Source: a virus
Virus record (IMG/VR): IMGVR_UViG_3300030493_000012
Length of the DNA stretch: 64,000 nt
Direction: 5' to 3' (one strand)
Part shown: positions 6,328 through 48,426 of the stretch, in pieces
Numbering within the stretch: position 1 is the stretch's first letter
Layout of the letters: every line of letters begins with the position of its first letter
Position numbers and translations under genes: made by a program
The notes under the pieces: model-generated
What the model was told of the DNA's origin: nothing
Databases searched by the model: none
The model's input: only the letters and a program-made list of their open reading frames with translations

Positions 6328-6576
6328 ATGGCCAACCCAATGTCTCACCGCTATTATACCACAGAAGAACTTCTTATGATGGAGAAGCAAAAGAATATCG
6401 AAAAGTCAGAAAAGTTAGTTGCGGCTTATGAAAAGATTATTGAGTTGCAAAACAAAATAAATGAATTAGCTTTTCCCACGCCTCAAATTAAAAGCAGCAA
6501 AACTGGATTTTATGAGACTTGGAAATCAGAAATATTTAGTCCGAAATTTAAAGCCACAGTAACAGAGGTTGATTAG
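6328..6576 (+). CDS. Hypothetical coiled-coil protein
   Basis: Start refined to ATG 6328 (MANPMS). Confidence 0.6.
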   Translation: MANPMSHRYYTTEELLMMEKQKNIEKSEKLVAAYEKIIELQNKINELAFPTPQIKSSKTGFYETWKSEIFSPKFKATVTEVD

Positions 6577-15852: not shown

Positions 15853-16545
15853 TTAAACCAGAGCCAAAGACTCTGCCCCAACCGCTTCCCAGACATTGCG
15901 AGTGTCAAGATTAGTCAAACCCTGCCACGCTCGCGCCTTGGCATTCGCGCCAGCCCCAAACTCACTACTGGCCAACTGCTTAAGCCGATTTTCCCCGCCG
16001 CTTGACTCATGACTATAAAAATCAGTCACAGCCGAAAAACAATCAAGCATAGTTTCCCCGCGATTACCAGCCCCGCGCACAAACAATTCCCCAAGCCGTT
16101 CGACAGTGTTAGTTGCACGGGTGGACAGCTTGCGCTTTTCGCCACCGGTCATAAACCCGGCAAAGATATTCTTGGCGCGGCCAGCATCGCAGGTTTCCCC
16201 GGCCAAAGTTTCCATCTTGGCTTGGAAGATTTCGCGGCCAGATTGCATTTCGATAATGGCCTTTTCAACTTCGTCCAATCGGCTGTCAATATTGGCGGTG
16301 TGCTTCAAGTAAAAATTAATGTTGTGATTTTCGGCCAGCGAAATATTCAAAGTATTCTGGCACACAACACAGGTGTTGCAATCAAACAATGACAGCCCCA
16401 TTGACCCGTCATGACTCCAAGCCGCCACCATTCGATTATTGAATTCGCGATTTGCAATGTCAAACTTATCCTTAACGCCTTCAATTTTGACCGTAACGGC
16501 ATACTTGCTACGCCCGCCACCAGTCAATATCTTTCCAGCCAACAA
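15853..16545 (-). CDS. DUF932 (TIGR03299-like) protein, apparently N-terminally truncated or frameshifted
   Basis: AWSHDGS...VVCQNTL...LKHT motifs; in-frame TAA just upstream; the promoter-linked ATG (16606) is in another frame. Confidence 0.65.
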   Translation of the reverse strand: MLAGKILTGGGRSKYAVTVKIEGVKDKFDIANREFNNRMVAAWSHDGSMGLSLFDCNTCVVCQNTLNISLAENHNINFYLKHTANIDSRLDEVEKAIIEMQSGREIFQAKMETLAGETCDAGRAKNIFAGFMTGGEKRKLSTRATNTVERLGELFVRGAGNRGETMLDCFSAVTDFYSHESSGGENRLKQLASSEFGAGANAKARAWQGLTNLDTRNVWEAVGAESLALV

Positions 16546-16881
16546 AATTAAATGGCCTAACGCCGCTTGTTACTTCAATGACGAAAAAAGTGTTTTTGGT
16601 TTCCATGTTTCTATATTTACCTATTTGAGCGGCCAAGTCAACTAAAAATCAATCTATTTTTAATCGGCGGCAGCCAAGTATTTCTTCAAAACCTCTGCTC
16701 TTTTCTTATACAAACCATCCAAAACAATCTCTTGCCTTGCCATTTCAGCCTCTAAATTGATTATTTCAACACTCAAATTCTCATGTTCATCAGCCAAGAT
16801 GTTTTTTTTGTTAAAAGTATATGTTTTGTCCATACTTTTATAATTAACTAAAAAAACACGAAAATCAAGAAAAAACTTAGT

Positions 16882-17274
16882 TTATTTTGCTTTTTTAAGC
16901 TCTTTTTGAACTTTTAGCCAGTAATTTTGTGTTAAATGCTTCTTTTTTGCAAAATTTGGGCCTGAATTCCAACATCGGGCCATGCTTTCAAAGTCCTGTA
17001 TTTTAACAGATTGTGGACAATACCTATTAAGATAAGCCTCCATTACTTTTACAGAGTAGGCTAAGTTAGTACATTGAATATAAGAGCCGCTAATTTTAGA
17101 ATCAATCCAACAATTTTTGCTAATCATCAGTGGGCCTAATGACATTTTTGAATCCCCATATATTAGCCCAACTTTACCAGAACTTTCAACTTGATGAATA
17201 GCTTGGACAAACTTTGCTGGCAAAGCCGCGTTTGTATTTAAAGCCAAAATAATGGGGATTAGGTATTTAAGCAT
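16882..17274 (-). CDS. Lysozyme-like / transglycosylase with N-terminal signal or anchor sequence
   Basis: AIHQVESSG...GD...LGPLMIS...ARCWNSGP...YWLKV; start refined to ATG 17274. Confidence 0.65.
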   Translation of the reverse strand: MLKYLIPIILALNTNAALPAKFVQAIHQVESSGKVGLIYGDSKMSLGPLMISKNCWIDSKISGSYIQCTNLAYSVKVMEAYLNRYCPQSVKIQDFESMARCWNSGPNFAKKKHLTQNYWLKVQKELKKAK

Positions 17275-17359
17275 AATTTTGTAAGAATTGGCGACAGCCC
17301 AAACCAAGCTATCAGCGTTTTTAGAGGCTTTAGACTCTTTGCAACCTTTTTATTAAAAA

Positions 17360-17628
17360 TAAGAATAAAGAAAAGTGTCGCACATTCATCCTACTTTCTT
17401 TTATTTCCTTCTGGAACACCAAGGTTAACTCGCTTTGTGCAAGTCGGCTTGGTAAGAAAGCTCCAGCGACCTATCATTATTGACGGCTAGACAGCTAATC
17501 CAGCTAGTAATTTAATTCAGGTTTTCTTCCCTAGGTTATTTTGCCAGTGTGCTACACTGAATTGTTTAACCTTTCACTTTTTCTCTATTCTTGCGGTTGC
17601 AAGCCGCTTTACTTTGATTGCTCTCGCT
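17360..17628 (-). ncRNA. Candidate structured non-coding RNA
   Basis: Starts at +1 of TTGACT-N17-TAGTAT (promoter about 17635-17663); no ORF; nested helices. Confidence 0.45.
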
Positions 17629-17675
17629 AACTAAATACTAAATTAAACAAACACCAAAGTCAAATTTTATTTCTA

Positions 17676-17776
17676 AAAAAGGTCTGACGGTCTCAGGTCG
17701 CTCAGCTTGAATAGCAAGGATTCAAACGCTGCCCTCAATGAACCGCCAGATTGTTAAGAGCCGGGAAGGCTCGCAA
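17676..17776 (-). ncRNA. Candidate small structured RNA with intrinsic terminator
   Basis: Promoter TTGACT-N17-TAATCT; stems GAGCC/GGCTC, TCTGGCGGT/ACCGTCAGA and GTTTGAAT/ATTCAAGC; T-run. Confidence 0.45.
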
Positions 17777-17795
17777 CATCCTAAGATTAAGTTTT

Positions 17796-18137
17796 TTAAC
17801 TGAAAAAGTCAACAATTTTCTTTGCCAAACTGAAAAAGTCAAAACTAGCCTTTTCTTCCATCCTGCCCAAAGCTATTTTCACTCCAGTCTTATAGCAGAA
17901 ATTGTCCATTTTGGAGCAAACAGCAGACCCGACAAACCTACCTTGCGGGCCATCCAATTCAATGATTGTCAAGCCGCCCTTTGGATGTCGGCGCTTGCCA
18001 TCCAAATCCTTAATAGGCTCAACTTTTTGCCTCTTGACAATCGGAACGCCGAAATTGGCATAACGATAGTGCTTTACGCGAACCTTATAACCTTTTTGGC
18101 GCAGGCTCTGGATTGATTCACTTGATAGGTTGGGCAT
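17796..18137 (-). CDS. Conserved phage hypothetical protein
   Basis: PKGGLT...AVCSKMDNFCYKTG..IALGR; own leaderless promoter. Confidence 0.7.
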   Translation of the reverse strand: MPNLSSESIQSLRQKGYKVRVKHYRYANFGVPIVKRQKVEPIKDLDGKRRHPKGGLTIIELDGPQGRFVGSAVCSKMDNFCYKTGVKIALGRMEEKASFDFFSLAKKIVDFFS

Positions 18138-18154
18138 ATTCTTATATTAGGTTT

Positions 18155-18403
18155 TTATTTATTGTTTGTCAAATTAAAAAGCTCAAAATCAAAATAAACT
18201 CTGCATTTGCCATCTCCTATCATTTCTTCATACAATTCGCCTATTTTTTGACGCAAATTATTTAGATATAAATTTTCTTCTTGTGGTTCGCCGTCAAATA
18301 CTGATAAATCTATGCTTGTGGACAATTCAAAATGAGAAGAGAAAAGACCCACTGATGGGTCATTGGGAAATTCAATATAGATTTTTTCAATTGTGCGTGT
18401 CAT
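18155..18403 (-). CDS. Hypothetical protein
   Basis: Own promoter; C-terminus LTNNK encoded by the next promoter. Confidence 0.65.
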   Translation of the reverse strand: MTRTIEKIYIEFPNDPSVGLFSSHFELSTSIDLSVFDGEPQEENLYLNNLRQKIGELYEEMIGDGKCRVYFDFELFNLTNNK

Positions 18404-18434
18404 GTTTCTATATTTGATTATTTAACCAGAATTG

Positions 18435-18662
18435 TCAAGCAGAATATAAAACAACCAATCTCTTTACAATCTCCTTATTAATAGCATAATTACCGGCGCG
18501 GGTAAAATTCAGATTAACTTTTTTGGCTTTTCCATCTTCCAAAATAAACACACTTCCAGTTTGGCCGCTTAACCAGTTATTTATTTCGGCCTCAGCTTTC
18601 AAAAGAGGAAAATCTTTTAAGGCAAAATCAGATTGAAAATTTATTACTGGCGTTCGCGGCAT
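18435..18662 (-). CDS. Hypothetical protein
   Basis: Own promoter; TGA stop inside the next -35 box. Confidence 0.65.
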   Translation of the reverse strand: MPRTPVINFQSDFALKDFPLLKAEAEINNWLSGQTGSVFILEDGKAKKVNLNFTRAGNYAINKEIVKRLVVLYSA

Positions 18663-18693
18663 AATCCTATATTAAGCCAATTAAACGAAAGAA

Positions 18694-18897
18694 TCAAGTT
18701 TTAAAATACAAACTTTGGTATTTTGTGGTTTCATTCAGGCCATCATAATAACCTTGCCAATAAGCTCTAATTAAAGGATTAATATCATCAAGCCCAAATT
18801 GCATTTTGCGCCGGTTAGCAAAACAGAGCATATCAGAATCATCATGCACATAACCACTGGCAAACCCGGCTCTATATTCTTTCTGTATCTTTGTCAT
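18694..18897 (-). CDS. Hypothetical protein
   Basis: Own promoter TTGACT-N17-TAGGTT-N6-ATG. Confidence 0.65.
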   Translation of the reverse strand: MTKIQKEYRAGFASGYVHDDSDMLCFANRRKMQFGLDDINPLIRAYWQGYYDGLNETTKYQSLYFKT

Positions 18898-18928
18898 GCT
18901 TTAAACCTAATCTTTTCGGAAAACAAAG

Positions 18929-19177
18929 TCAATTATAAGTATTAATTGTTTGCATAGCCGCAACGCCTCTTTCCATCTTTTGTTCAATGCCATTGGTATC
19001 AAAGACTTTGATAAAACGCGGATAAGCTGAACCTTGTGATTTAAGATTTTGCGTCAATTGAAACCACAGGCTAAAAATAGCTTTACGCGAGCCAAAAACT
19101 TCAAAATGATTCTCGCTTTCAAACATTGACTCAGTTGTATCTGATGCTTCTGTATATTGGAGCTTGAAAATATTCAT
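18929..19177 (-). CDS. Hypothetical protein
   Basis: Own promoter with 19-nt leader. Confidence 0.65.
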   Translation of the reverse strand: MNIFKLQYTEASDTTESMFESENHFEVFGSRKAIFSLWFQLTQNLKSQGSAYPRFIKVFDTNGIEQKMERGVAAMQTINTYN

Positions 19178-19227
19178 AATTGCTATTTCTAATTAAAGAT
19201 TAGACTATTTTTACAAGCTTGTCAAAT

Positions 19228-19260
19228 AAAAAAATACCAAGTTTGCTGTCCTTGGTATCG
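19228..19260 (-). terminator. Rho-independent terminator
   Basis: ATACCAAG-gacagcaaa-CTTGGTAT followed by T-run. Confidence 0.7.
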
Positions 19261-19274
19261 CATCCAACAACAAA

Positions 19275-19550
19275 TTAGCTAACCTTAATCCATTCGCCGC
19301 CCCACGGCTGGCCATTCAAATACCATTGATAATTCTTTTGGTAAATTGAAACTCCAAATATAGCATTAAGCCGCTCTTTGGTGGTATTGCTAAACCAGCC
19401 AGCGTTGGTTATCCAAATATCTTTGTTACACCATTTGGCGATTTTATTGCCATGCAAATAAAGAGCTTGGCCATCACTTACTGTATTTCCCAAAGACTTG
19501 GCTTGACGGCTATTAAAAGCTCCCACTATCTTGTCTGTAATTTTGCGCAT
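19275..19550 (-). CDS. Conserved phage hypothetical protein
   Basis: YLHGNKIA...ITNAGW...TTKERLNA, a recurrent phage family. Confidence 0.7.
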   Translation of the reverse strand: MRKITDKIVGAFNSRQAKSLGNTVSDGQALYLHGNKIAKWCNKDIWITNAGWFSNTTKERLNAIFGVSIYQKNYQWYLNGQPWGGEWIKVS

Positions 19551-19865
19551 TTTTGTGCTTTGTTTTTATTTAAGGTTTATTAACTACTTATTCAGAATAG
19601 ATTTTTTCGTAACCAAAAGCAACTAAATTTTCTTAATATTCCGAATTGTCACATTTTCAACGGCTTGATAAAGTTTTTGAGCATATTCAAGAACCGCTTT
19701 TGCACTTACATCATAGAATACAGTGGACTTTACAACAATTCCGCGCTTTAGTTGCTCGTTTTTGTCGTTGACAACTCTAACCAAATCCCCATCTTTAATT
19801 GTGTCGGTCTGCATAAGCAATAGTAATGGCCATTATTAAAAACAAAACTAGCATTTTTGGCGGGG

Positions 19866-20054
19866 CTAAACCAGAGACACAACTTCAATCTTGGTTTGTT
19901 CCCCAGCCTTTGGCTTCCCCTTGCCTCGCTTAACCCATTCGCCATTTCGCATGACAAAAGTAATGTTCTTGGTGGTATAGATACGCTTGCGGCCACGGCG
20001 CTTTGGCGTTACTGGCACAACCGGCGTTTCGACTGTATTTTGTGTTTCATTCAT
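19866..20054 (-). CDS. Small basic protein, possibly nucleic-acid binding
   Basis: PKRRGRKR and KRGKGKP basic motifs; own promoter. Confidence 0.6.
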   Translation of the reverse strand: MNETQNTVETPVVPVTPKRRGRKRIYTTKNITFVMRNGEWVKRGKGKPKAGEQTKIEVVSLV

Positions 20055-20099
20055 AGTTTTATTATTAAGTTTAGTCTAATGTTCTGAAAATGTCAATCT

Positions 20100-20366
20100 T
20101 TATTCTTCAATTTCTGCCACCATTTTGACAGACTTGACTTCTTGAAACCGATAGTCGCTAGTAAAATCACTAACAAAATGAATCAAGACCTTGCCACAAG
20201 GCGAGTATGTAACAATTTTTCCATTGTAAACAAAAGCAATTGCATTATTATACAAATCATCATTTGGCCTAGATGTAACCAAATAAGGAACGCCCTGGGC
20301 AATTTCGGTTGCAGACAAGGTTGTGTTTGCTCGCTTTGTCTTTTTGATTTCAAGTTCAATTTTCAT
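20100..20366 (-). CDS. Hypothetical protein
   Basis: Own promoter; TAA beside the next -35 box. Confidence 0.6.
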   Translation of the reverse strand: MKIELEIKKTKRANTTLSATEIAQGVPYLVTSRPNDDLYNNAIAFVYNGKIVTYSPCGKVLIHFVSDFTSDYRFQEVKSVKMVAEIEE

Positions 20367-21603: not shown

Positions 21604-21683
21604 TGGTGGGCCTTATGGCTTGAGTTGACCATAATGACAGCTTATGAGGCTGCTGTTATTTACCTCGTTTTAACTAAAGGCCC
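21604..21683 (-). tRNA. tRNA with CAU anticodon (Ile2 or Met), non-canonical T-loop
   Basis: Acceptor GGGCCTT/AAGGCCC-ACCA; D-stem GTTA/TAAC; anticodon arm GCAGC-CTCATAA-GCTGT. Confidence 0.75.
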
Positions 21684-25859: not shown

Positions 25860-26327
25860 TTAGCCAACATCAGCCAGTTTATAACTTCCAAGCCTCTCAA
25901 TTGTCTCAGCCTCAGACATTTGCTCTCCATTATTATAAAGATTAAAATCACAACCTTTACAGCCACCAAGAACATATTTGTTTGAGCCTTCAACTGAAAT
26001 AGGAACAATAAAACTTTTTTTGTTTGAATAATAATACCTCTTACCAACCTCAATTTTTGGTTTGTTCAGTTTTTCCAAGATAGAATCAATGTTGGAAAGT
26101 TCCGAAAATTCAACTAAATGGAAATCTTCTGGGGCATTGAAGGTTGCATTTATATAAGTAGGATAATAATAAACAATTGGATAAGCATTAATACATACGT
26201 TTTTAATTGTATCTTCCAAGATGATTTCCGAAATTTTACAGCCAATTTTAGAGGCCAAAAAATAAAGCGCGGCCAGTTTTTCAGCCTGATTGTTTGTCTT
26301 AATAGCGATATTCTTAATAGTAATCAT
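25860..26327 (-). CDS. Hypothetical protein, tandem paralog A
   Basis: NNQAEKLAALYFLA.K.GCKIS shared with the next gene. Confidence 0.7.
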   Translation of the reverse strand: MITIKNIAIKTNNQAEKLAALYFLASKIGCKISEIILEDTIKNVCINAYPIVYYYPTYINATFNAPEDFHLVEFSELSNIDSILEKLNKPKIEVGKRYYYSNKKSFIVPISVEGSNKYVLGGCKGCDFNLYNNGEQMSEAETIERLGSYKLADVG

Positions 26328-36771: not shown

Positions 36772-37000
36772 AGTTTAAGGATGGGTTTTACAAACAATAA
36801 TGTCAACACTTTTCAAACTTCCAAGCGGCCAAATCACCTTTATCAGTAAAAATAACCTGTAAATTAAAATTCCGAAATTCGCAGTAAAGAGTTTCAGCCA
36901 TTTTTTCAATCAAATAGTGCGGAACACCTTGAGATTGAAGCATTTCTCTGATTTCAGAGGCGTCTTGGTTGTCAGAGATTTGGTAGGTGATTGTCATATT

Positions 37001-37222
37001 TTATCCAGCCAAAACAATTTTCTTGTTAATCCAAATACCTTTTCGTCTAATTTGTTTTTCGTATTCTGCAATTATTTGATTAGCCTTGGTTTTGTTTACT
37101 TTTTGCGATTCAAAACTCCAAAATTCTGGTTTATTAGTGCGACATTCCACGCTACCAATTAAATTGCCATCTAAAAATACATGATTAGTGGCGAATCCTA
37201 AAGTTGCAAATACAATGTTCAT
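37001..37222 (-). CDS. Hypothetical protein
   Basis: TTGACG-N17-TATTCT-N7-ATG. Confidence 0.6.
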   Translation of the reverse strand: MNIVFATLGFATNHVFLDGNLIGSVECRTNKPEFWSFESQKVNKTKANQIIAEYEKQIRRKGIWINKKIVLAG

Positions 37223-37258
37223 AATTCAAAGAATAAACTTTCAGAACAAATACGTCAA

Positions 37259-37447
37259 TCAGAATATTTCGGTATCAAGAAAATCTTTGATTCTTTGATT
37301 CATGTTGCGCTTCGCATTTTCATAACCTGCATTATGTCCATTGGCCCAACATTGACCAAATTTAAGAAACAAACCAGAGTCTTTTATTTTCTTTTGGTCT
37401 TCTGACGACAGGCTTTCAAAAAACGTGCTGAACATTTTAATTTCCAT
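37259..37447 (-). CDS. Hypothetical protein
   Basis: TTGACA-N17-TATTCT-N6-ATG. Confidence 0.6.
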   Translation of the reverse strand: MEIKMFSTFFESLSSEDQKKIKDSGLFLKFGQCWANGHNAGYENAKRNMNQRIKDFLDTEIF

Positions 37448-37524
37448 ATTTCAAGAATAGAGTTTTGTGGTTAGGTTGTCAAGAAAGAATCGAACGTGCA
37501 ACGATTTTAAGTGTAATATTAGAT

Positions 37525-38442
37525 ATGAAACAGGTTCAAATAGACGAAAATAAATTAATTGAATATCATTCGCAAGGTCTTGATTGCGATAAAATTGCCT
37601 CTATCTTTAACTGCGCCCGTTGGACAATATCTAAAAGGTTGAAACTATTAGGTTTAACTATTAATAAAGCCAAAAGAAATCCGCTTACCAAAGAAACAAA
37701 ACTGGTAATGTCGGAAAAGAGAAAAGAATGGATTCGCAATAACCCAGATAAACATCCGTGGCGAAATCATAATAAATTTAAATCAGTTCCTTGCGAGAAG
37801 GTTAAAGAGTGGCTGGTAAATAATAAAATTCAATTTATTTCCGAAATGGAGATTGAGTGCGCTGATAACCACACTTATTCTATAGACATAGCATTTCCAG
37901 AAAGAAAAATTGGATTAGAAATTAATGGAAACCAACATTATAACCGCGACGGAACGCTAAAACCTTATTATCAACAAAGAGAAAATTTGATTAAAGAGCT
38001 AGGCTGGCAACTGGTTCAAATACATTATTCATTGTGTTTTAATTTAGCTAAAATACAAAATATTGTTGAAAATGTTTTAGCCGGTAAAAATGAGGAATTT
38101 TTTAATTATAAAGAGTATTTTGAGGAAAAAGCCAAGAGAGAGCAAGAAAAGAAAACACCTAAAAAATGTTGCGATTGCGGCTCTGAAATTCATAAATATG
38201 CAATAAGATGTCGGAGTTGTGCGTCTTCGGCTATAAACAAAACAAGAACAAAAAGATGTGACAAAGAACAATTATTGGAATTAGTAAATAAATTTCCAAT
38301 GACAGCAATAGCTAAAAAATTCGGAGTTTCCGGTGGTTCTATTAAAAAATGGTGTAACTTTTACAATATAACAATTCCAGATAGAAGAGGATATTGGGCC
38401 AAGTTACAATATGGCAAAACAGAGCCTCAAATAATTATTTAA
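37525..38442 (+). CDS. Free-standing PD-(D/E)XK (Vsr/DUF559-like) endonuclease with HTH and Zn-ribbon domains
   Basis: YSIDIAFPERKIGLEINGNQH; CCDCG...CRSC; terminal HTH-like segments; start refined to ATG 37525. Confidence 0.8.
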   Translation: MKQVQIDENKLIEYHSQGLDCDKIASIFNCARWTISKRLKLLGLTINKAKRNPLTKETKLVMSEKRKEWIRNNPDKHPWRNHNKFKSVPCEKVKEWLVNNKIQFISEMEIECADNHTYSIDIAFPERKIGLEINGNQHYNRDGTLKPYYQQRENLIKELGWQLVQIHYSLCFNLAKIQNIVENVLAGKNEEFFNYKEYFEEKAKREQEKKTPKKCCDCGSEIHKYAIRCRSCASSAINKTRTKRCDKEQLLELVNKFPMTAIAKKFGVSGGSIKKWCNFYNITIPDRRGYWAKLQYGKTEPQIII

Positions 38443-38444
38443 AT

Positions 38445-38522
38445 TGGTGGTGTTGGCGGAAATCGAATCCGCATTATCCAATTATGCACATTCTGTTTAG
38501 AAGACAGAGCCATTACAACACC
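38445..38522 (-). tRNA. tRNA-Arg(UCU)-like RNA lacking a D-arm in the normal position
   Basis: GGTGTTG/CAACACC-ACCA; TCTGT-CTTCTAA-ACAGA; GCGGA-TTCGATT-TCCGC. Confidence 0.7.
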
Positions 38523-38583
38523 ATTAAAATCAACGACTTACAAAAGTTTTCGGAATCATTTTCAGAACTACTCATTAGCTCAA

Positions 38584-38766
38584 CTAACTCTTCTGGCTAT
38601 TGAAATAATCCAAAGTCTCAAACAATTTATACAGCGGCCTACTAACTTCTTGCCTAGTAAATTTCTTAGTTAGTTTTGCGGCGTAATCATATTGCAAATT
38701 ACCAATTACCTTGGTCAAAATTTCAATTTCCTTCTCTGTAAGACTGATGTTTATGATAGCGTCCAT
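38584..38766 (-). CDS. Hypothetical protein
   Basis: TTGACT-N17-AATAAT-N7-ATG. Confidence 0.6.
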   Translation of the reverse strand: MDAIINISLTEKEIEILTKVIGNLQYDYAAKLTKKFTRQEVSRPLYKLFETLDYFNSQKS

Positions 38767-38802
38767 AGTTTTGATTATTGTCTTTTATAACTACAAAGTC
38801 AA

Positions 38803-39024
38803 CTAATTTCCATCATGTCGCCCCGACTCAATAACTTGATTGCAAAATTTGTCAATCGCCCACTCTATGTCTTTTCGTTCTAAAGTATCCAAAAACTTCA
38901 ATTGTTCAGGCGTCCAGCCATATTTGTCGGTTTTCATTGCCATTTTGAAGGCTTCTTTGTAATTAATCTCTTCTAAGATAGCGGCCAAAATCAAAGATTC
39001 TCTTTCTGTTAATTCTATATTCAT
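38803..39024 (-). CDS. Hypothetical protein
   Basis: ATGA overlap with upstream ORF. Confidence 0.6.
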   Translation of the reverse strand: MNIELTERESLILAAILEEINYKEAFKMAMKTDKYGWTPEQLKFLDTLERKDIEWAIDKFCNQVIESGRHDGN

Positions 39025-39254
39025 AAATTATCCCCAAGCCAGCCATGCTCGCAAATCAAAAATTGAGCCGCTTTAACATGCTTAACTCCTGCTTTTTCTA
39101 GCTTTTCAATTTCTGAATCTTCAAGTTCGCTGGTTGGCGCACAAAAGATGTTCTCTGTGTCGTTCCAATACCTTTCGCCAAAAATTTCAAAAATCAAATC
39201 ACTGGATTCTTTACCTTTCAAAACTAAACAGTTTGTTTCAAATGCTTCAATCAT
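39021..39254 (-). CDS. Hypothetical acidic protein
   Basis: TTGACA-N17-TAATCT-N6-ATG. Confidence 0.65.
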   Translation of the reverse strand: MIEAFETNCLVLKGKESSDLIFEIFGERYWNDTENIFCAPTSELEDSEIEKLEKAGVKHVKAAQFLICEHGWLGDNL

Positions 39255-42915: not shown

Positions 42916-43326
42916 ATGGATGATAAATTAAACAAAATAACCAGAAAGCACGGTAAGCATACGGCTTACAATCTCAATTATTATATCGTTTTCTGTCCGA
43001 AATACCGGAAAAGTGTTCTCGTCGGTGATATAGCGATTCATACTGAAGAAATCATACGGCATATTGCGGATAAAGTCAACGTAAAAATCGAAAATTTAAC
43101 GGTTGCGCCTGACCATGTTCGTGTTTTTCTGTCTGCGCCACCTAGATTATCACCGCAATCTATCGTCAAACGTCTTAAAGGAGCTACCGCCAACATCTTA
43201 CGCCAAAAATATCCTCAACTTTTACGGTTGCCAACTTTATGGTCTAGCTCGTATTATGTGTGTACGGTTGGCTCTGTATCTGATTCGGTAGTAAGTCTTT
43301 ATATCGAAAACCAGCGTGGCAAATGA
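42916..43326 (+). CDS. tnpA: IS200-type Y1 transposase; HUH motif altered (DHVRV)
   Basis: YYIVFCPKYRK...PDHVRVF...LWSSSYY...YIENQ. Confidence 0.9.
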   Translation: MDDKLNKITRKHGKHTAYNLNYYIVFCPKYRKSVLVGDIAIHTEEIIRHIADKVNVKIENLTVAPDHVRVFLSAPPRLSPQSIVKRLKGATANILRQKYPQLLRLPTLWSSSYYVCTVGSVSDSVVSLYIENQRGK

Positions 43327-44447
43327 TAACCTACAAGTTTCGCATCTTTCCAACCAGAAAACAAATGGCGATTCTCGCCAAGATGGAAGACGCGCATCTT
43401 AATCTTTACAATACCGCACTCGCCGAAAAGAACGACCAATACGAGAAAACCAAAAAATCTGATTCCGTATTTACGCAAATTAAACGATTTGTTCCGGCAG
43501 TTAAACAAACCGAAAACGGCAAGCTTTGCAATTATAGCTCGCTCCAGCAAACCATCAGACGCCTTCACAAGAGTTTTAATGCTATCTATAACCGCAGAGG
43601 CGGTAAACCGCGTTTTAAAAAGACCGTTCCTCTCGAATACAGTACTTATGGAGATGGCTGGAAAATAGTTAACGATAGTCTGCGTATTCAGAATGTTGGT
43701 TTTATTTCTCTCAAAACACACCGGCCAATTGACGGTAAAATTAAGAGTTTAGTAGTCAAGAAAAACGGAGACAAATTTTATGCTTGCGTTGCTTGCAAAC
43801 GTATTTCCGCTCCGTTAAAACAGACAAACAAGGCTGTCGGCATAGATTTCGGTCTCAAAACGTTTTTAACAATGTCAGACGGTGAAAAAGTCGAGCACTC
43901 TTTACCGTTAAAGCGTTCGTTAAAGAATATCGCCAAAATTCACCGCCAAATCAAGAAAGCAGTCGAGTCTAAATCGGCTCGCAAAGAGAAACTAAAACGC
44001 AAAGCTTTACGTTTAACTTACGAAAAAACCAAGAATCGTCGGCTCGATTTCGCGCATAAACTAAGCCGTAAAATCGTCAACGAAAACTCTTTTATAGCGG
44101 TTGAAGACCTCAATCTGCGAGGCTTGACGACCGGAATAAAGAACATCAACCGCAAATATTCCGATGTCGCAGTCGGCATGTTCTATGATTTACTCGCCTA
44201 CAAGGCTGAAAGTGCTGGTAGGCAATTCGTTCGCGTTAATCCAAAGAATACGTCTCAGGCGTGTTGCAAATGCGGAAAATTAGCCGGTCTAACTCTTAAA
44301 GACCGAGAAATTGTCTGTGATTGCGGACATTCCGAAGACCGTGATATTAACGCCGCCAAGAATATCTTGGCTTTAGGATTAAAAACCGTAGGACTATACG
44401 GTTCGTTAGAACTGAGTGCAAACTTGGTTCAAACCAGAAGCTCCTGA
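43323..44447 (+). CDS. tnpB: TnpB RNA-guided nuclease
   Basis: RuvC D (GIDFG), E (AVEDL), D (DRDINAA); Zn finger CCKCG...CDCG. Confidence 0.92.
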   Translation: MITYKFRIFPTRKQMAILAKMEDAHLNLYNTALAEKNDQYEKTKKSDSVFTQIKRFVPAVKQTENGKLCNYSSLQQTIRRLHKSFNAIYNRRGGKPRFKKTVPLEYSTYGDGWKIVNDSLRIQNVGFISLKTHRPIDGKIKSLVVKKNGDKFYACVACKRISAPLKQTNKAVGIDFGLKTFLTMSDGEKVEHSLPLKRSLKNIAKIHRQIKKAVESKSARKEKLKRKALRLTYEKTKNRRLDFAHKLSRKIVNENSFIAVEDLNLRGLTTGIKNINRKYSDVAVGMFYDLLAYKAESAGRQFVRVNPKNTSQACCKCGKLAGLTLKDREIVCDCGHSEDRDINAAKNILALGLKTVGLYGSLELSANLVQTRSS

Positions 44448-47036: not shown

Positions 47037-47313
47037 TTTTAGCCTCTGTAATTGGTTGAGCAGGAGCATCTTCAATGATAATTAGCTTTTCTTCCTTTGG
47101 TTTAGCCCACACATTAGTTTTTGGGTCTAAAACAACCAAAGATACACTTACCTTCTGGTCGCCAGTTAGGTTTTGGCCATAGAATAGGAAGTCTTCTGGC
47201 TTGTGTTTAATGCTTTCAAATACGTTTTTTTCGTTTTCTAAGCAATCTTCTGGAATCTCATATTCCCGAACGATATTGTATTGATAACGGATTTTAACAG
47301 TTTTAGTTTTCAT
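47014..47313 (-). CDS. Hypothetical protein
   Basis: TTGACT-N17-TATTCT-N6-ATG. Confidence 0.65.
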   Translation of the reverse strand: MKTKTVKIRYQYNIVREYEIPEDCLENEKNVFESIKHKPEDFLFYGQNLTGDQKVSVSLVVLDPKTNVWAKPKEEKLIIIEDAPAQPITEAKNDQGCKS

Positions 47314-47400
47314 TATCTAAGAATAGTGCTTTTCGTAACGAAAGTCAAGAAATTTGCAAAAAAATACAGTAAGTTGCCAACATGCAGTGTAATATACAGT

Positions 47401-48426
47401 ATGAAAAAATGTTATAAGTGCAAACAGGAAAAGGAATTAAATGAATTTTATAATTGCAAGAGCCAGCCAGACGGAAAGCAACAAAAATGCAAAGAGTGCT
47501 TTAAGATATTCGGAAAAATACAAAATGAGAGAAAACATCAATTAGGTATTTTTAAATATTATAATCATATTTTATCTAAAGAAGAAAAGTCGCAAATAGT
47601 TAAAGAGTACGCAGAAAATCATCTTTCAACGAAGTTAATTGCTGAGAAATTCAAAACGAATACCACGACTGTATTAAGGCTATTGAAAAAAAATAATATA
47701 AAAATTGATAGATTAAATTGTCAACGCAAATATAAAATAATTAATATAAACTATTTTGACAACATAGATACTGAGGATAGGGCATATTTCTTGGGGCTAT
47801 TGTGGGCTGATGGCTGTAATTATAAAGTAGATGGCAAAGCGCATCAAATTGTTATTCATTTGCAAAACAGAGACAGACATATTCTTGAAGAATTTGCTAC
47901 CAAGATTTATGGAGATACAAAAATTTTGTCAATTAGAAAGAAAAAAGACGAAAGATGCCAATTAATGTGTTGCTTTAGAATACCTAATAAATATATCTCT
48001 GATGTATTATTTGAGCACGGGATGGTTCCAAGAAAAAGTTTGATAGTTGATTGGCCTAAAAACCTGCCGGAAAACATGATTAAGCATTTTATTCGTGGTG
48101 AATATGATGGCGATGGCGGAATAAGTTATAATTCTAATTCAAAAAATTATGAGGTTATGTTTATAGGAAGCGTTCTTTTTATCAGTAAGCTTCAAAACTA
48201 TCTAAATAAAGAACTTAATGATAATTTTAGCCTGAAAATAGAAAAGAAAAAATTCTCAGTTCCAATGGCTTATTTAAGAATACATGGCAATCTTAAATGT
48301 AAAAAATTCCTAGACTGGCTTTATGATGGCGCGAAAACAAAACTAGACCGAAAATACCAGAGGTATCTCAGTCTATGTGAGTTAGTTCAAAAACTACATC
48401 CAGAATTAGGCGCAAAACCTGCCTAG
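47401..48426 (+). CDS. Free-standing LAGLIDADG homing endonuclease with N-terminal Zn finger/HTH
   Basis: AYFLGLLWADG and FIRGEYDGDG; start refined to ATG 47401. Confidence 0.9.
   Translation: MKKCYKCKQEKELNEFYNCKSQPDGKQQKCKECFKIFGKIQNERKHQLGIFKYYNHILSKEEKSQIVKEYAENHLSTKLIAEKFKTNTTTVLRLLKKNNIKIDRLNCQRKYKIININYFDNIDTEDRAYFLGLLWADGCNYKVDGKAHQIVIHLQNRDRHILEEFATKIYGDTKILSIRKKKDERCQLMCCFRIPNKYISDVLFEHGMVPRKSLIVDWPKNLPENMIKHFIRGEYDGDGGISYNSNSKNYEVMFIGSVLFISKLQNYLNKELNDNFSLKIEKKKFSVPMAYLRIHGNLKCKKFLDWLYDGAKTKLDRKYQRYLSLCELVQKLHPELGAKPA

What the first reader, a model, noticed from the sequence alone, without database searches (positions are those of the whole stretch)
38445..38522. tRNA-Arg(UCU)-like RNA with the D-arm apparently relocated into the variable region
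Seen: GGTGTTG-TAATGGC-TCTGT(CTTCTAA)ACAGA-ATGT-GCAT(AATTGGATA)ATGC-GGA(TTCGATT)TCCGC-CAACACC-ACCA. The acceptor stem, UCU anticodon arm, T-arm and CCA are intact. Only 7 nt lie between acceptor and anticodon stems, so there is no D-arm there. A D-arm-like hairpin with the GG-containing loop AATTGGATA follows the anticodon arm and shares 2 nt with the T-stem. Established: canonical bacterial tRNAs place the D-arm 5' of the anticodon. Inference: an arm-rearranged tRNA or tRNA mimic (for example a decoy for anticodon nucleases) rather than random decay, because all the stems are perfect.
Basis: partly seen in the sequence, partly recalled or inferred. Interest (0 to 1): 0.7.

Follow-up and report, generated by a model that had tools for sequence, protein, structure and literature searches.

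The report
Phage arginine tRNA with rewired D-arm
This 78-base phage gene is very probably a working arginine tRNA (anticodon UCU) whose D-stem is built from two strands lying on either side of the anticodon arm, a non-cloverleaf layout that many phages share, that tRNA finders miss and that I found in no paper.

Summary
The sequence is real, lies on the minus strand at 38445-38522, and is identical in a contig from a second, independent groundwater run. It is not a one-off. Two motif scans and a covariance model recovered 55 distinct relatives in uncultured phages. Copies also occur in Streptomyces phage Mildred21, Microbacterium phage A3Wally and Salmonella phage Felix O1, where they are unannotated or mis-annotated.

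The 5' linker (nt 10-14) pairs with the segment just after the anticodon arm (nt 34-39). The two core pairs are Watson-Crick in 55/55 sequences with all four pair types. The D-loop motif (A14, A15, G18G19, A20, A21) follows, then U48 and the T arm. U8:A14, the 15:48 pair, G18G19 and the ArgRS determinant A20 are all kept.

In tRNA arrays the rewired gene almost always carries an Arg anticodon that the canonical genes lack. This phage uses AGA for 45% of its Arg codons.

The adjacent ORF belongs to an endonuclease family found next to tRNA-Arg genes in 12 of 14 places examined, counting the window; 11 of those tRNAs carry UCU.

Expression and charging are untested. This scan has found the same class before on other DNA.

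The parts
38445..38522 (-). Whole rewired tRNA-Arg(UCU) gene, 78 nt including the encoded CCA
   Evidence: RF00005 38.5 bits. Class model R1 83.2 bits. Identical in a contig of the independent run X2.
38516..38522 (-). Acceptor stem 5' strand (nt 1-7). U8 and A9 follow at 38515-38514.
   Evidence: All 7 pairs are Watson-Crick here. All 7 columns covary in the family. U8 is kept in 54/55 sequences and A9 in 54/55.
38509..38513 (-). nt 10-14 (AUGGC). This strand takes the place of D-stem positions 22-25 plus 26 and runs straight into the anticodon stem.
   Evidence: It pairs with 38484-38489. The two core columns are Watson-Crick in 40/40 sequences (MAFFT alignment) and 55/55, with all four pair types. 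They rank first and fourth by mutual information among all column pairs.
38492..38508 (-). Anticodon arm: 5-bp stem (nt 15-19 with 27-31) and loop CUUCUAA. The anticodon UCU lies at 38499-38501.
   Evidence: Sequence. The stem columns covary. U33 and A37 are present.
38484..38491 (-). nt 32-39: a 2-nt linker (AU), then the strand that takes the place of D-stem positions 10-13 (GU-G-CAU, with G36 at 38487 bulged).
   Evidence: Pairs are A10:U39, U11:A38, G12:C37, G13:U35 and C14:G34. In the window's subgroup the G13 partner varies between U and C while the bulged G is kept.
38473..38483 (-). D-loop-like single strand AAUUGGAUA (A14 A15 U U G18 G19 A20 U A21), followed by A and U48
   Evidence: A14 partners U8 in 54/55 sequences. 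The 15:48 pair is A:U in 53 and G:C in 2, with no mismatches. GG is kept in 54/55. A20 is present in 51/51 members with an Arg anticodon.
38456..38472 (-). T arm: 5-bp stem (GCGGA/UCCGC) and loop UUCGAUU
   Evidence: The stem is 99-100% paired and all five pairs covary. The loop fits the UUCRANY consensus.
38445..38455 (-). Acceptor stem 3' strand (38449-38455), discriminator A (38448) and encoded CCA (38445-38447)
   Evidence: 33 of the 55 relatives also encode CCA.
37465..38442 (+). Endonuclease-like ORF, probable start ATG at 37525. It converges on the tRNA, and its stop codon lies 2 nt from the tRNA 3' end.
   Evidence: Weak Pfam RAP/HTH matches and PHROG homing/HNH endonuclease matches. 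It is 43% identical (E 3e-62) to L102:8101-8865, which abuts another rewired tRNA-Arg(UCU) in the same tail-to-tail arrangement while the flanking genes are unrelated. Counting the window, 12 of 14 places with this endonuclease hold a tRNA-Arg gene next to it.
38774..38802 (-). Promoter-like site (10 of 12 consensus positions) upstream of the small ORF 38584-38766 and the tRNA
   Evidence: Consensus scan only. This is not evidence of function.

Best explanation
The element is a gene for a functional arginine tRNA (anticodon UCU, reading AGA) of a phage-borne class with a rewired core.

The acceptor stem, anticodon arm, T arm and every D-arm element are present. However, the chain segment equivalent to positions 10-21 (the 5' D-stem strand plus the D-loop) lies after the anticodon arm instead of before it. 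The D-stem therefore forms between nt 10-14 and nt 34-39 and encloses the anticodon arm as one long bent helix. The D-loop motif then runs as a single strand into the T stem.

Inferred, not shown: the RNA still folds into the usual L shape. The swapped strands would occupy the same places as in a cloverleaf, and U8:A14, A15:U48, G18/G19 with the T loop, and A20 would all be kept. On that basis RNase P, a CCA-adding enzyme where needed, ArgRS (via A20, C35, U36 and A73), EF-Tu and the ribosome could use it.

The allele probably reached this phage together with the adjacent homing-type endonuclease gene, whose family sits beside tRNA-Arg genes, nearly all with anticodon UCU.
For: 1. All helices are intact and the class model scores 83 bits.

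2. 55 distinct relatives were found. The cross-anticodon-arm pairs are Watson-Crick in 55/55 with all four pair types. They are the first- and fourth-ranked covarying column pairs of the alignment.

3. Tertiary partners are kept. U8:A14 holds in 54/55, GG in 54/55, and 15:48 is A:U in 53 and G:C in 2 with no mismatch.

4. Identity elements track the anticodon. A20 is present in 51/51 Arg members and U20 in 3/4 Ile members.

5. In 20 phage loci that hold both kinds of Arg tRNA, the rewired anticodon duplicates a canonical one only once. Shuffling gives a mean of 5.9 (P about 0.002).

6. Mildred21 has only CCU as a canonical Arg tRNA, and ACG, UCG and UCU as rewired genes. Felix O1 has canonical ACG plus a rewired UCU.

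7. The phage has 35.5% GC, and AGA makes up 45% of its Arg codons.

8. A motif search returned 45 tRNA-like hits in viral contigs but only 2 in 596 Gb of prokaryote genomes.

9. The endonuclease link is described.
Against: There are no expression, processing or aminoacylation data for this gene or any member of the class. Energy-based folding does not predict the short cross-arm helix: the MFE structure is -22.6 kcal/mol against -20.0 for the rewired structure, and RNAalifold calls only the acceptor, anticodon and T stems. In the window's subgroup the helix needs a bulged G and a G:U pair. The L-shape argument is reasoning from textbook tRNA geometry, not a model. Many family members have a non-Watson-Crick 27:43 pair. 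The host is unknown. A note in this scan says that part of a similar claim on other DNA fell in a later check; I could not see which part.
Confidence: 0.8

Rival explanations
1. The D-arm has moved as an intact hairpin into the variable region, and the RNA acts as a tRNA mimic or decoy, for example for anticodon nucleases, and not as a decoder.
For: In this one sequence GCAU/AUGC can pair around AAUUGGAUA. Phages are known to carry tRNAs that counter tRNA-cleaving defences (my own knowledge).
Against: Across the family the hairpin pairs fail in 19-25 of 40 sequences and never change on both sides. Its outer two nucleotides belong to a covarying 5-bp T stem. Two members of the window's own subgroup (L099, L120) change that position together with the T-stem partner. 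In this sequence the hairpin version is less stable than the rewired one, -17.9 against -20.0 kcal/mol. The ArgRS determinant A20 is conserved and the anticodons complement the canonical sets, which argues for a decoder.
Confidence: 0.05
2. A tRNA-like element that serves the neighbouring homing endonuclease and not translation. Possible roles are a homing-site mimic, or a processing or termination signal for the convergent endonuclease transcript.
For: The endonuclease ORF ends 2 nt from the element. Homologous endonucleases abut such elements in several unrelated phages.
Against: Most rewired genes sit inside tRNA arrays with no endonuclease beside them. The same endonuclease family also sits next to ordinary tRNA-Arg genes. 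A signal of this kind would not need the anticodon loop, A20, the 15:48 pair or complementarity to the canonical anticodon sets.
Confidence: 0.07
3. A decaying or scrambled tRNA pseudogene left by recombination or endonuclease-induced repair.
For: Standard finders fail on it. It lies beside a mobile endonuclease gene.
Against: Every stem is perfect. The same layout recurs in 55 distinct sequences with compensatory changes. The sequence is identical in an independent sample.
Confidence: 0.03
4. The transcript is cut and re-ligated into a canonical cloverleaf order, as happens with permuted tRNA genes.
For: Some carrier phages encode RNA ligase and polynucleotide kinase (Mildred21 and A3Wally).
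Against: The termini are normal and paired. Two cuts and two ligations would be needed, and no bulge-helix-bulge or similar motif is visible. The linkers that exist only in the rewired order (UGAAA or AGAAA, and CAU) are conserved. The window has no detectable ligase near the gene, although I made no exhaustive search.
Confidence: 0.02

Closest known systems
Canonical class I bacterial and phage tRNA-Arg (Rfam RF00005), for example the ordinary tRNA-Arg(ACG) of Felix O1 or tRNA-Arg(CCU) of Mildred21
   Same: 7-bp acceptor stem, 5-bp anticodon stem with a 7-nt loop, 5-bp T stem with a UUCRANY loop, and a D-stem of 3-4 pairs. Also U8, A14, R15:Y48, G18G19, A20, A21, the discriminator, and often an encoded CCA.
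   Different: The chain order is different. The D-stem strand equivalent to 22-25 comes right after U8 and A9. The strand equivalent to 10-13 plus the D-loop comes after the anticodon arm. There is therefore no D hairpin and no ordinary variable loop, and the junction has three helices instead of four.
D-arm-lacking mitochondrial tRNAs (mammalian mt tRNA-Ser(AGY), nematode mt tRNAs; review PMC7609411)
   Same: There is no hairpin between the acceptor and anticodon stems, and standard finders fail.
   Different: Those tRNAs have lost the D-stem and the G18G19 loop, and they depend on adapted mitochondrial factors. Here all D-arm elements are kept and only their order is changed, and the genes are in phages of bacteria.
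Permuted and split tRNA genes of Cyanidioschyzon and Archaea (PMC3218864)
   Same: The gene order of tRNA segments differs from the mature cloverleaf order.
   Different: Those are circular permutations or separate pieces that are processed into a normal cloverleaf. Here the 5' and 3' ends are the normal, paired acceptor ends, and an internal segment is transposed.
allo-tRNAs and tRNA-Sec with 8/4 or 9/3 acceptor/T arrangements (PMC5389517)
   Same: Naturally occurring non-standard tRNA architectures found by metagenome mining, some of them in phages.
   Different: Those keep the four-arm cloverleaf order. Only the stem lengths and the variable arm differ.
Free-standing homing endonucleases in phage tRNA regions, such as T4 SegB (PMC2330249)
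   Same: An endonuclease gene sits beside tRNA genes. SegB recognises a site that includes a conserved tRNA T-arm motif and drives co-inheritance of the neighbouring tRNA genes. The window's ORF family is likewise tied to tRNA-Arg genes.
   Different: The nuclease family differs (weak PD-(D/E)XK/RAP-type matches, not GIY-YIG). No cleavage data exist. The neighbouring tRNA here is of the rewired type.

Membership tests
tRNA (Rfam RF00005) | Score at or above the curated gathering threshold | tested here: met
   38.5 bits against 29. The whole-window run with default filters missed it.
tRNA (Rfam RF00005) | Acceptor stem, anticodon arm with U33 and purine 37, and T arm with a UUCRA loop | tested here: met
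   All three helices covary in relatives.
tRNA (Rfam RF00005) | D-arm hairpin between the acceptor and anticodon stems (cloverleaf order) | tested here: not met
   Only 7 nt lie there. The model alignment deletes the D-arm and ARAGORN finds nothing.
Rewired phage tRNA-Arg/Ile class (defined here and in earlier notes of this scan) | A helix between the 5' linker and the segment just 3' of the anticodon arm | tested here: met
   A10:U39, U11:A38, G12:C37, G13:U35 and C14:G34 in the window. The family columns are paired in 55/55 with all four pair types.
Rewired phage tRNA-Arg/Ile class (defined here and in earlier notes of this scan) | The D-loop motif (A14 R15 .. G18 G19 N20 .. A21) follows that helix, then Y48 directly before the T stem | tested here: met
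   The window has AAUUGGAUA followed by AU. The 15:48 pair is A:U in 53 and G:C in 2.
Rewired phage tRNA-Arg/Ile class (defined here and in earlier notes of this scan) | A high score to the class covariance model, separated from canonical tRNAs | tested here: met
   83.2 bits. Canonical tRNAs in the same loci score about 41 bits or less, and rewired members score 50-95.
Arginine identity (bacterial ArgRS determinants: A20, C35, U/G36, A/G73; my own knowledge and review PMC9976931, which I did not read in detail) | A20, C35, U36 and a purine discriminator are present | tested here: met
   The window has A20, the UCU anticodon and A73. A20 is present in 51/51 Arg-anticodon members.
Arginine identity (bacterial ArgRS determinants: A20, C35, U/G36, A/G73; my own knowledge and review PMC9976931, which I did not read in detail) | Actual charging by ArgRS | not testable with these tools
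   This needs an aminoacylation assay.
D-arm-less mitochondrial-type tRNA | Loss of the D-stem and of the G18G19 elbow contact | tested here: not met
   The D-stem equivalent covaries and GG is kept in 54/55.
Permuted tRNA gene | The 3' half is encoded upstream of the 5' half, with the mature ends created by processing | tested here: not met
   The gene's ends are the paired acceptor strands, followed by discriminator and CCA.
Homing endonuclease (for ORF 37465-38442) | A recognisable nuclease domain | tested here: inconclusive
   Only weak matches were found: Pfam RAP at E 4e-4, and PHROG homing/HNH endonuclease families at E 5e-5 to 5e-4. The homolog L102 matches REase_MTES_1575 and RAP weakly.
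Homing endonuclease (for ORF 37465-38442) | Patchy distribution at one kind of genomic site in otherwise unrelated genomes | tested here: met
   Counting the window, 12 of 14 places with this endonuclease hold a tRNA-Arg gene beside it: 7 rewired UCU, 4 canonical UCU and 1 canonical CCU. The flanks of the window and of L102 are unrelated.

The most novel reading that the evidence does not exclude
A tRNA that works on bacterial ribosomes without a cloverleaf. The L-shaped core would be rebuilt from a transposed chain order, with D-stem strands on either side of the anticodon arm. This design would have arisen once or a few times and then been spread among unrelated phages by homing endonucleases that target tRNA-Arg loci, perhaps because the rearranged gene no longer carries their cleavage site.
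Probability: 0.3. Interest if true: 0.9.

Novelty: new variant of a known kind. Interest (0 to 1): 0.85.

Why it matters
The cloverleaf order of arms is treated as universal outside mitochondria, and gene finders, Rfam and annotation pipelines assume it.

A conserved, covarying class that keeps every tertiary partner but changes the chain connectivity would have three consequences:
- The L-shape, not the cloverleaf, would be what translation selects for.
- It would give a natural test case for which contacts ArgRS, EF-Tu, RNase P and the ribosome really need.
- Phage tRNA repertoires would be under-counted. In Mildred21, three of the four Arg isoacceptors are unannotated or mis-annotated. Felix O1's UCU gene is unannotated and overlaps the annotated start of an HNH gene.

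The class occurs in easily handled phages (Felix O1, Streptomyces and Microbacterium phages), so it can be tested directly. The tie to endonucleases that home beside tRNA-Arg genes suggests a route by which selfish elements reshape and spread tRNA genes.

Tried and rejected
- **Whole-window scans.** ARAGORN and the Rfam gathering run found nothing.
- **Exact-motif scans for near-identical copies in viral contigs.** None were found.
- **Close relatives of the phage through rIIA.** The best cultured match is 30% identical. No close IMG/VR relative exists.
- **blastn of the 401-nt region against phages.** No match.
Rejected by pair counts.
- **RNAalifold on the blind alignment.** It does not call the short cross-arm helix, so the case for that helix rests on covariation and not on energy.
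- **A stub of an overwritten canonical tRNA-Arg beside the endonuclease gene,** as earlier notes reported on other DNA. None was found at 36900-37700 or 38300-38700.
- **RNA evidence.** No RNA holder is listed for this stretch.
- **Motif scan of 596 Gb of prokaryote genomes.** It gave 66 hits, of which only 2 are tRNA-like, both on short MAG contigs.
- **Literature.** Eight full-text searches and three papers read produced no description of this layout. The library lacks most subscription journals.
- **The earlier check.** I could not find out which part of an earlier, similar claim 'fell' in a later check.

Full report
**Observation.** Rfam's tRNA model matches at 38.5 bits (gathering score 29, E 9e-7). 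It does so only by deleting the D-arm (4 nt where 15 belong) and inserting 16 nt in the variable region. ARAGORN sees no tRNA in the whole window. The record is a 182-kb, 98%-complete virus genome from groundwater with 35.5% GC, an rIIA gene and several mobile nuclease genes. A contig from a second run, of another sample and study, covers 38350-39094 without a single difference, so an assembly artefact is excluded.

**It belongs to a family.** The phage has no close relative in the collections I could search, so I searched for the architecture instead.
- A pattern requiring the UCU anticodon loop, then a D-loop-like motif, then a T loop found 42 viral loci, of which 16 are tRNA-like with the same layout.
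- A pattern that left the anticodon free found 56 loci, of which 45 are tRNA-like.
- The same pattern in 596 Gb of prokaryote genomes gave 66 hits. Only two are tRNA-like, both on short MAG contigs.
- A covariance model built from 40 unique sequences (R1) finds further copies in the same loci. It separates them (50-95 bits) from the canonical tRNAs of the surrounding arrays (about 41 bits or less).
- ARAGORN detects all nine canonical tRNAs tested and none of nine rewired genes.
- The window's gene scores 83.2 bits and is the only one in its genome.

**What the structure is.** I counted pairs first on a structure-blind MAFFT alignment (A2).
- The two central pairs between the 5' linker and the three nucleotides just before the D-loop-like motif are Watson-Crick in 40/40 sequences, with 27 and 21 double changes.
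- On the model-based alignment of 55 distinct sequences they read U:A 16, A:U 14, C:G 13, G:C 12 for one pair, and C:G 28, G:C 18, U:A 5, A:U 4 for the other. Both are paired in 55/55.
- In an all-against-all mutual-information scan they rank first and fourth among all column pairs, level with the acceptor and anticodon stems.
Its pairs are broken in 19-25 of 40 sequences and never change on both sides. The two nucleotides it borrows from the T stem belong to a T stem that is 100% paired and covaries.
- RNAalifold, which leans on energy, calls only the acceptor, anticodon and T stems. The short helix therefore rests on covariation.

In the window the helix is A10:U39, U11:A38, G12:C37, then a bulged G36, then G13:U35 and C14:G34. 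Within the window's subgroup the partner of G13 switches between U and C while the bulged G stays.

**Reading it in tRNA numbering (partly inference).**
- The strand after U8 and A9 is continuous with the 5' strand of the anticodon stem through one nucleotide, just as positions 22-25 and 26 are in a cloverleaf.
- The strand after the anticodon arm is followed by A14 A15 U U G18 G19 A20 U A21, just as positions 10-13 are.
- The outermost pair, equivalent to 13:22, is U-U in 47 of 55 sequences, matching the usual weakness of that pair.
- The conserved tertiary partners are kept. U8 with A14 holds in 54/55, GG in 54/55, and position 15 with the nucleotide just before the T stem is A:U in 53 and G:C in 2, with no mismatch.

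So the segment equivalent to 10-21 has changed places with the segment equivalent to 22-43. From textbook tRNA geometry, the D-stem stacks on the anticodon stem, and its 13:22 end lies next to U8, A14, A21 and 48. The new connections are therefore short, and the same L shape should be reachable. I could not model this step.

**Evidence that it is a working tRNA-Arg.**
- Anticodons in the 55 sequences are UCU 20, ACG 17, UCG 9, CCU 3, GCG 2, GAU 3 and UAU 1. The bias towards Arg comes partly from my search motif.
- The nucleotide after GG is A in 51/51 Arg members and U in 3 of 4 Ile members. This fits A20 being the ArgRS determinant (the determinant itself is my own knowledge).
- In 20 phage loci that hold both canonical and rewired Arg genes, the rewired anticodon repeats a canonical one only once. 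Shuffling gives a mean of 5.9 (P about 0.002). Related phages are not independent, so that P value is rough.
- Streptomyces phage Mildred21 has tRNAs annotated for all amino acids but only CCU as a canonical Arg gene. ACG, UCG and UCU are supplied by rewired genes. One is annotated 'tRNA-OTHER', one is mis-called tRNA-Phe(gaa), and one is unannotated. An unannotated rewired Ile(GAU) gene is also present.
- Microbacterium phage A3Wally has one unannotated copy.
- Felix O1 has canonical ACG and an unannotated rewired UCU gene at 25951-26032 that overlaps the annotated start of an HNH gene.
- In the window's phage AGA makes up 45% of Arg codons.

**The neighbouring endonuclease.**
- ORF 37465-38442 (probable start at 37525) converges on the tRNA and stops 2 nt from its 3' end. 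Its family matches are weak (RAP, HTH, and PHROG homing/HNH endonuclease families).
- It is 43% identical (E 3e-62) to an ORF that abuts another rewired tRNA-Arg(UCU) in the same tail-to-tail arrangement in an unrelated 207-kb phage. Nothing else in 16 kb of the window matches that locus.
- Thirteen further distinct loci encode homologs. Counting the window, a rewired tRNA-Arg(UCU) lies within about 150 nt in seven places, and a canonical tRNA-Arg lies beside or within the match in five more (UCU four times, CCU once).
- The family is therefore tied to tRNA-Arg genes, nearly all UCU, whatever their architecture. This is the behaviour expected of a homing endonuclease. T4 SegB, which recognises a tRNA T-arm motif and drags neighbouring tRNA genes along, is the precedent.
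- Other rewired genes sit next to HNH, GIY-YIG or DUF559-type genes.
- I infer that hitch-hiking with such nucleases helped spread the rewired allele.
- Whether rewiring protects the gene from cleavage is open. Five homologs coexist with canonical genes, and I found no stub of an overwritten tRNA in this window.

**Novelty.** Eight full-text searches, a 2020 review of non-canonical tRNAs, the cluster BE1 announcement and the SegB paper contain no description of this layout. The library is incomplete, so this is not proof. Notes from this scan show that other agents reached the same reading on other DNA many times, and that one related claim partly fell in a check whose content I could not see. 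I derived the structure before opening those notes. Their endonuclease and Felix O1 leads were then tested here.

**Limits.** No RNA data exist for this stretch and the host is unknown. The 3D argument is inference, and all of the functional evidence is comparative.

Noticed in passing
window 21604-21683 (-): A second odd tRNA-like gene. It has a 7-bp acceptor stem, a normal D-arm with GG, the anticodon loop CUCAUAA (CAU), discriminator A and an encoded CCA. Its T stem has only 4-5 bp, and its 10-nt loop (UCAACUCAAG) lacks the UUC motif. RF00005 scores it 24.8 bits, below threshold, and ARAGORN misses it. Together with the UCU gene it would cover AGA and AUA/AUG, a typical small phage tRNA set.
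   Followed up: partly
window 43323-44447 (+): A TnpB/IS605 OrfB-type gene (OrfB_IS605, Cas12f1-like TNB and HTH domains; PHROG 'transposase' at E 1e-86) inside the phage genome, next to rIIA.
   Followed up: no
window 47281-48426 (+): Another putative homing endonuclease, with a LAGLIDADG_3 match and PHROG endonuclease/endonuclease VII matches. The genome carries several mobile nuclease genes.
   Followed up: no
MF155946.1 (Streptomyces phage Mildred21) 91367-91445, 86379-86456, 94857-94936, 73703-73782: Four rewired tRNA genes in a cultured phage. One is annotated tRNA-Phe(gaa) but carries UCG. One is annotated tRNA-OTHER. Two are unannotated. An HNH gene ends 1 nt before the first.
   Followed up: yes
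NC_005282.1 (Felix O1) 25951-26032: An unannotated rewired tRNA-Arg(UCU) that overlaps the annotated start (26003) of HNH endonuclease ORF45, so that CDS start is probably wrong.
   Followed up: yes
L160:6288-6370 and 6376-6458; L254:2168-2250; L121:4778-4861: A further sub-type of the rewired layout (Arg UCU and UCG) with a longer, different D-loop-like segment. These score only 46-56 bits with model R1, so the class is broader than my motif scans show.
   Followed up: partly
run X2, 158-nt contig laid on window 38476-38516: A short contig from the second groundwater sample matches only the 5' two-thirds of the tRNA, with 4 differences, and continues into unlike sequence. It may be a related tRNA gene of another phage in that community.
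   Followed up: no
L263 and L264 (one 110-kb viral contig, 16294-20321 and 89332-93359): The endonuclease homolog, with a canonical tRNA-Arg(UCU) just upstream, occurs twice in the same contig in opposite orientation.
   Followed up: no
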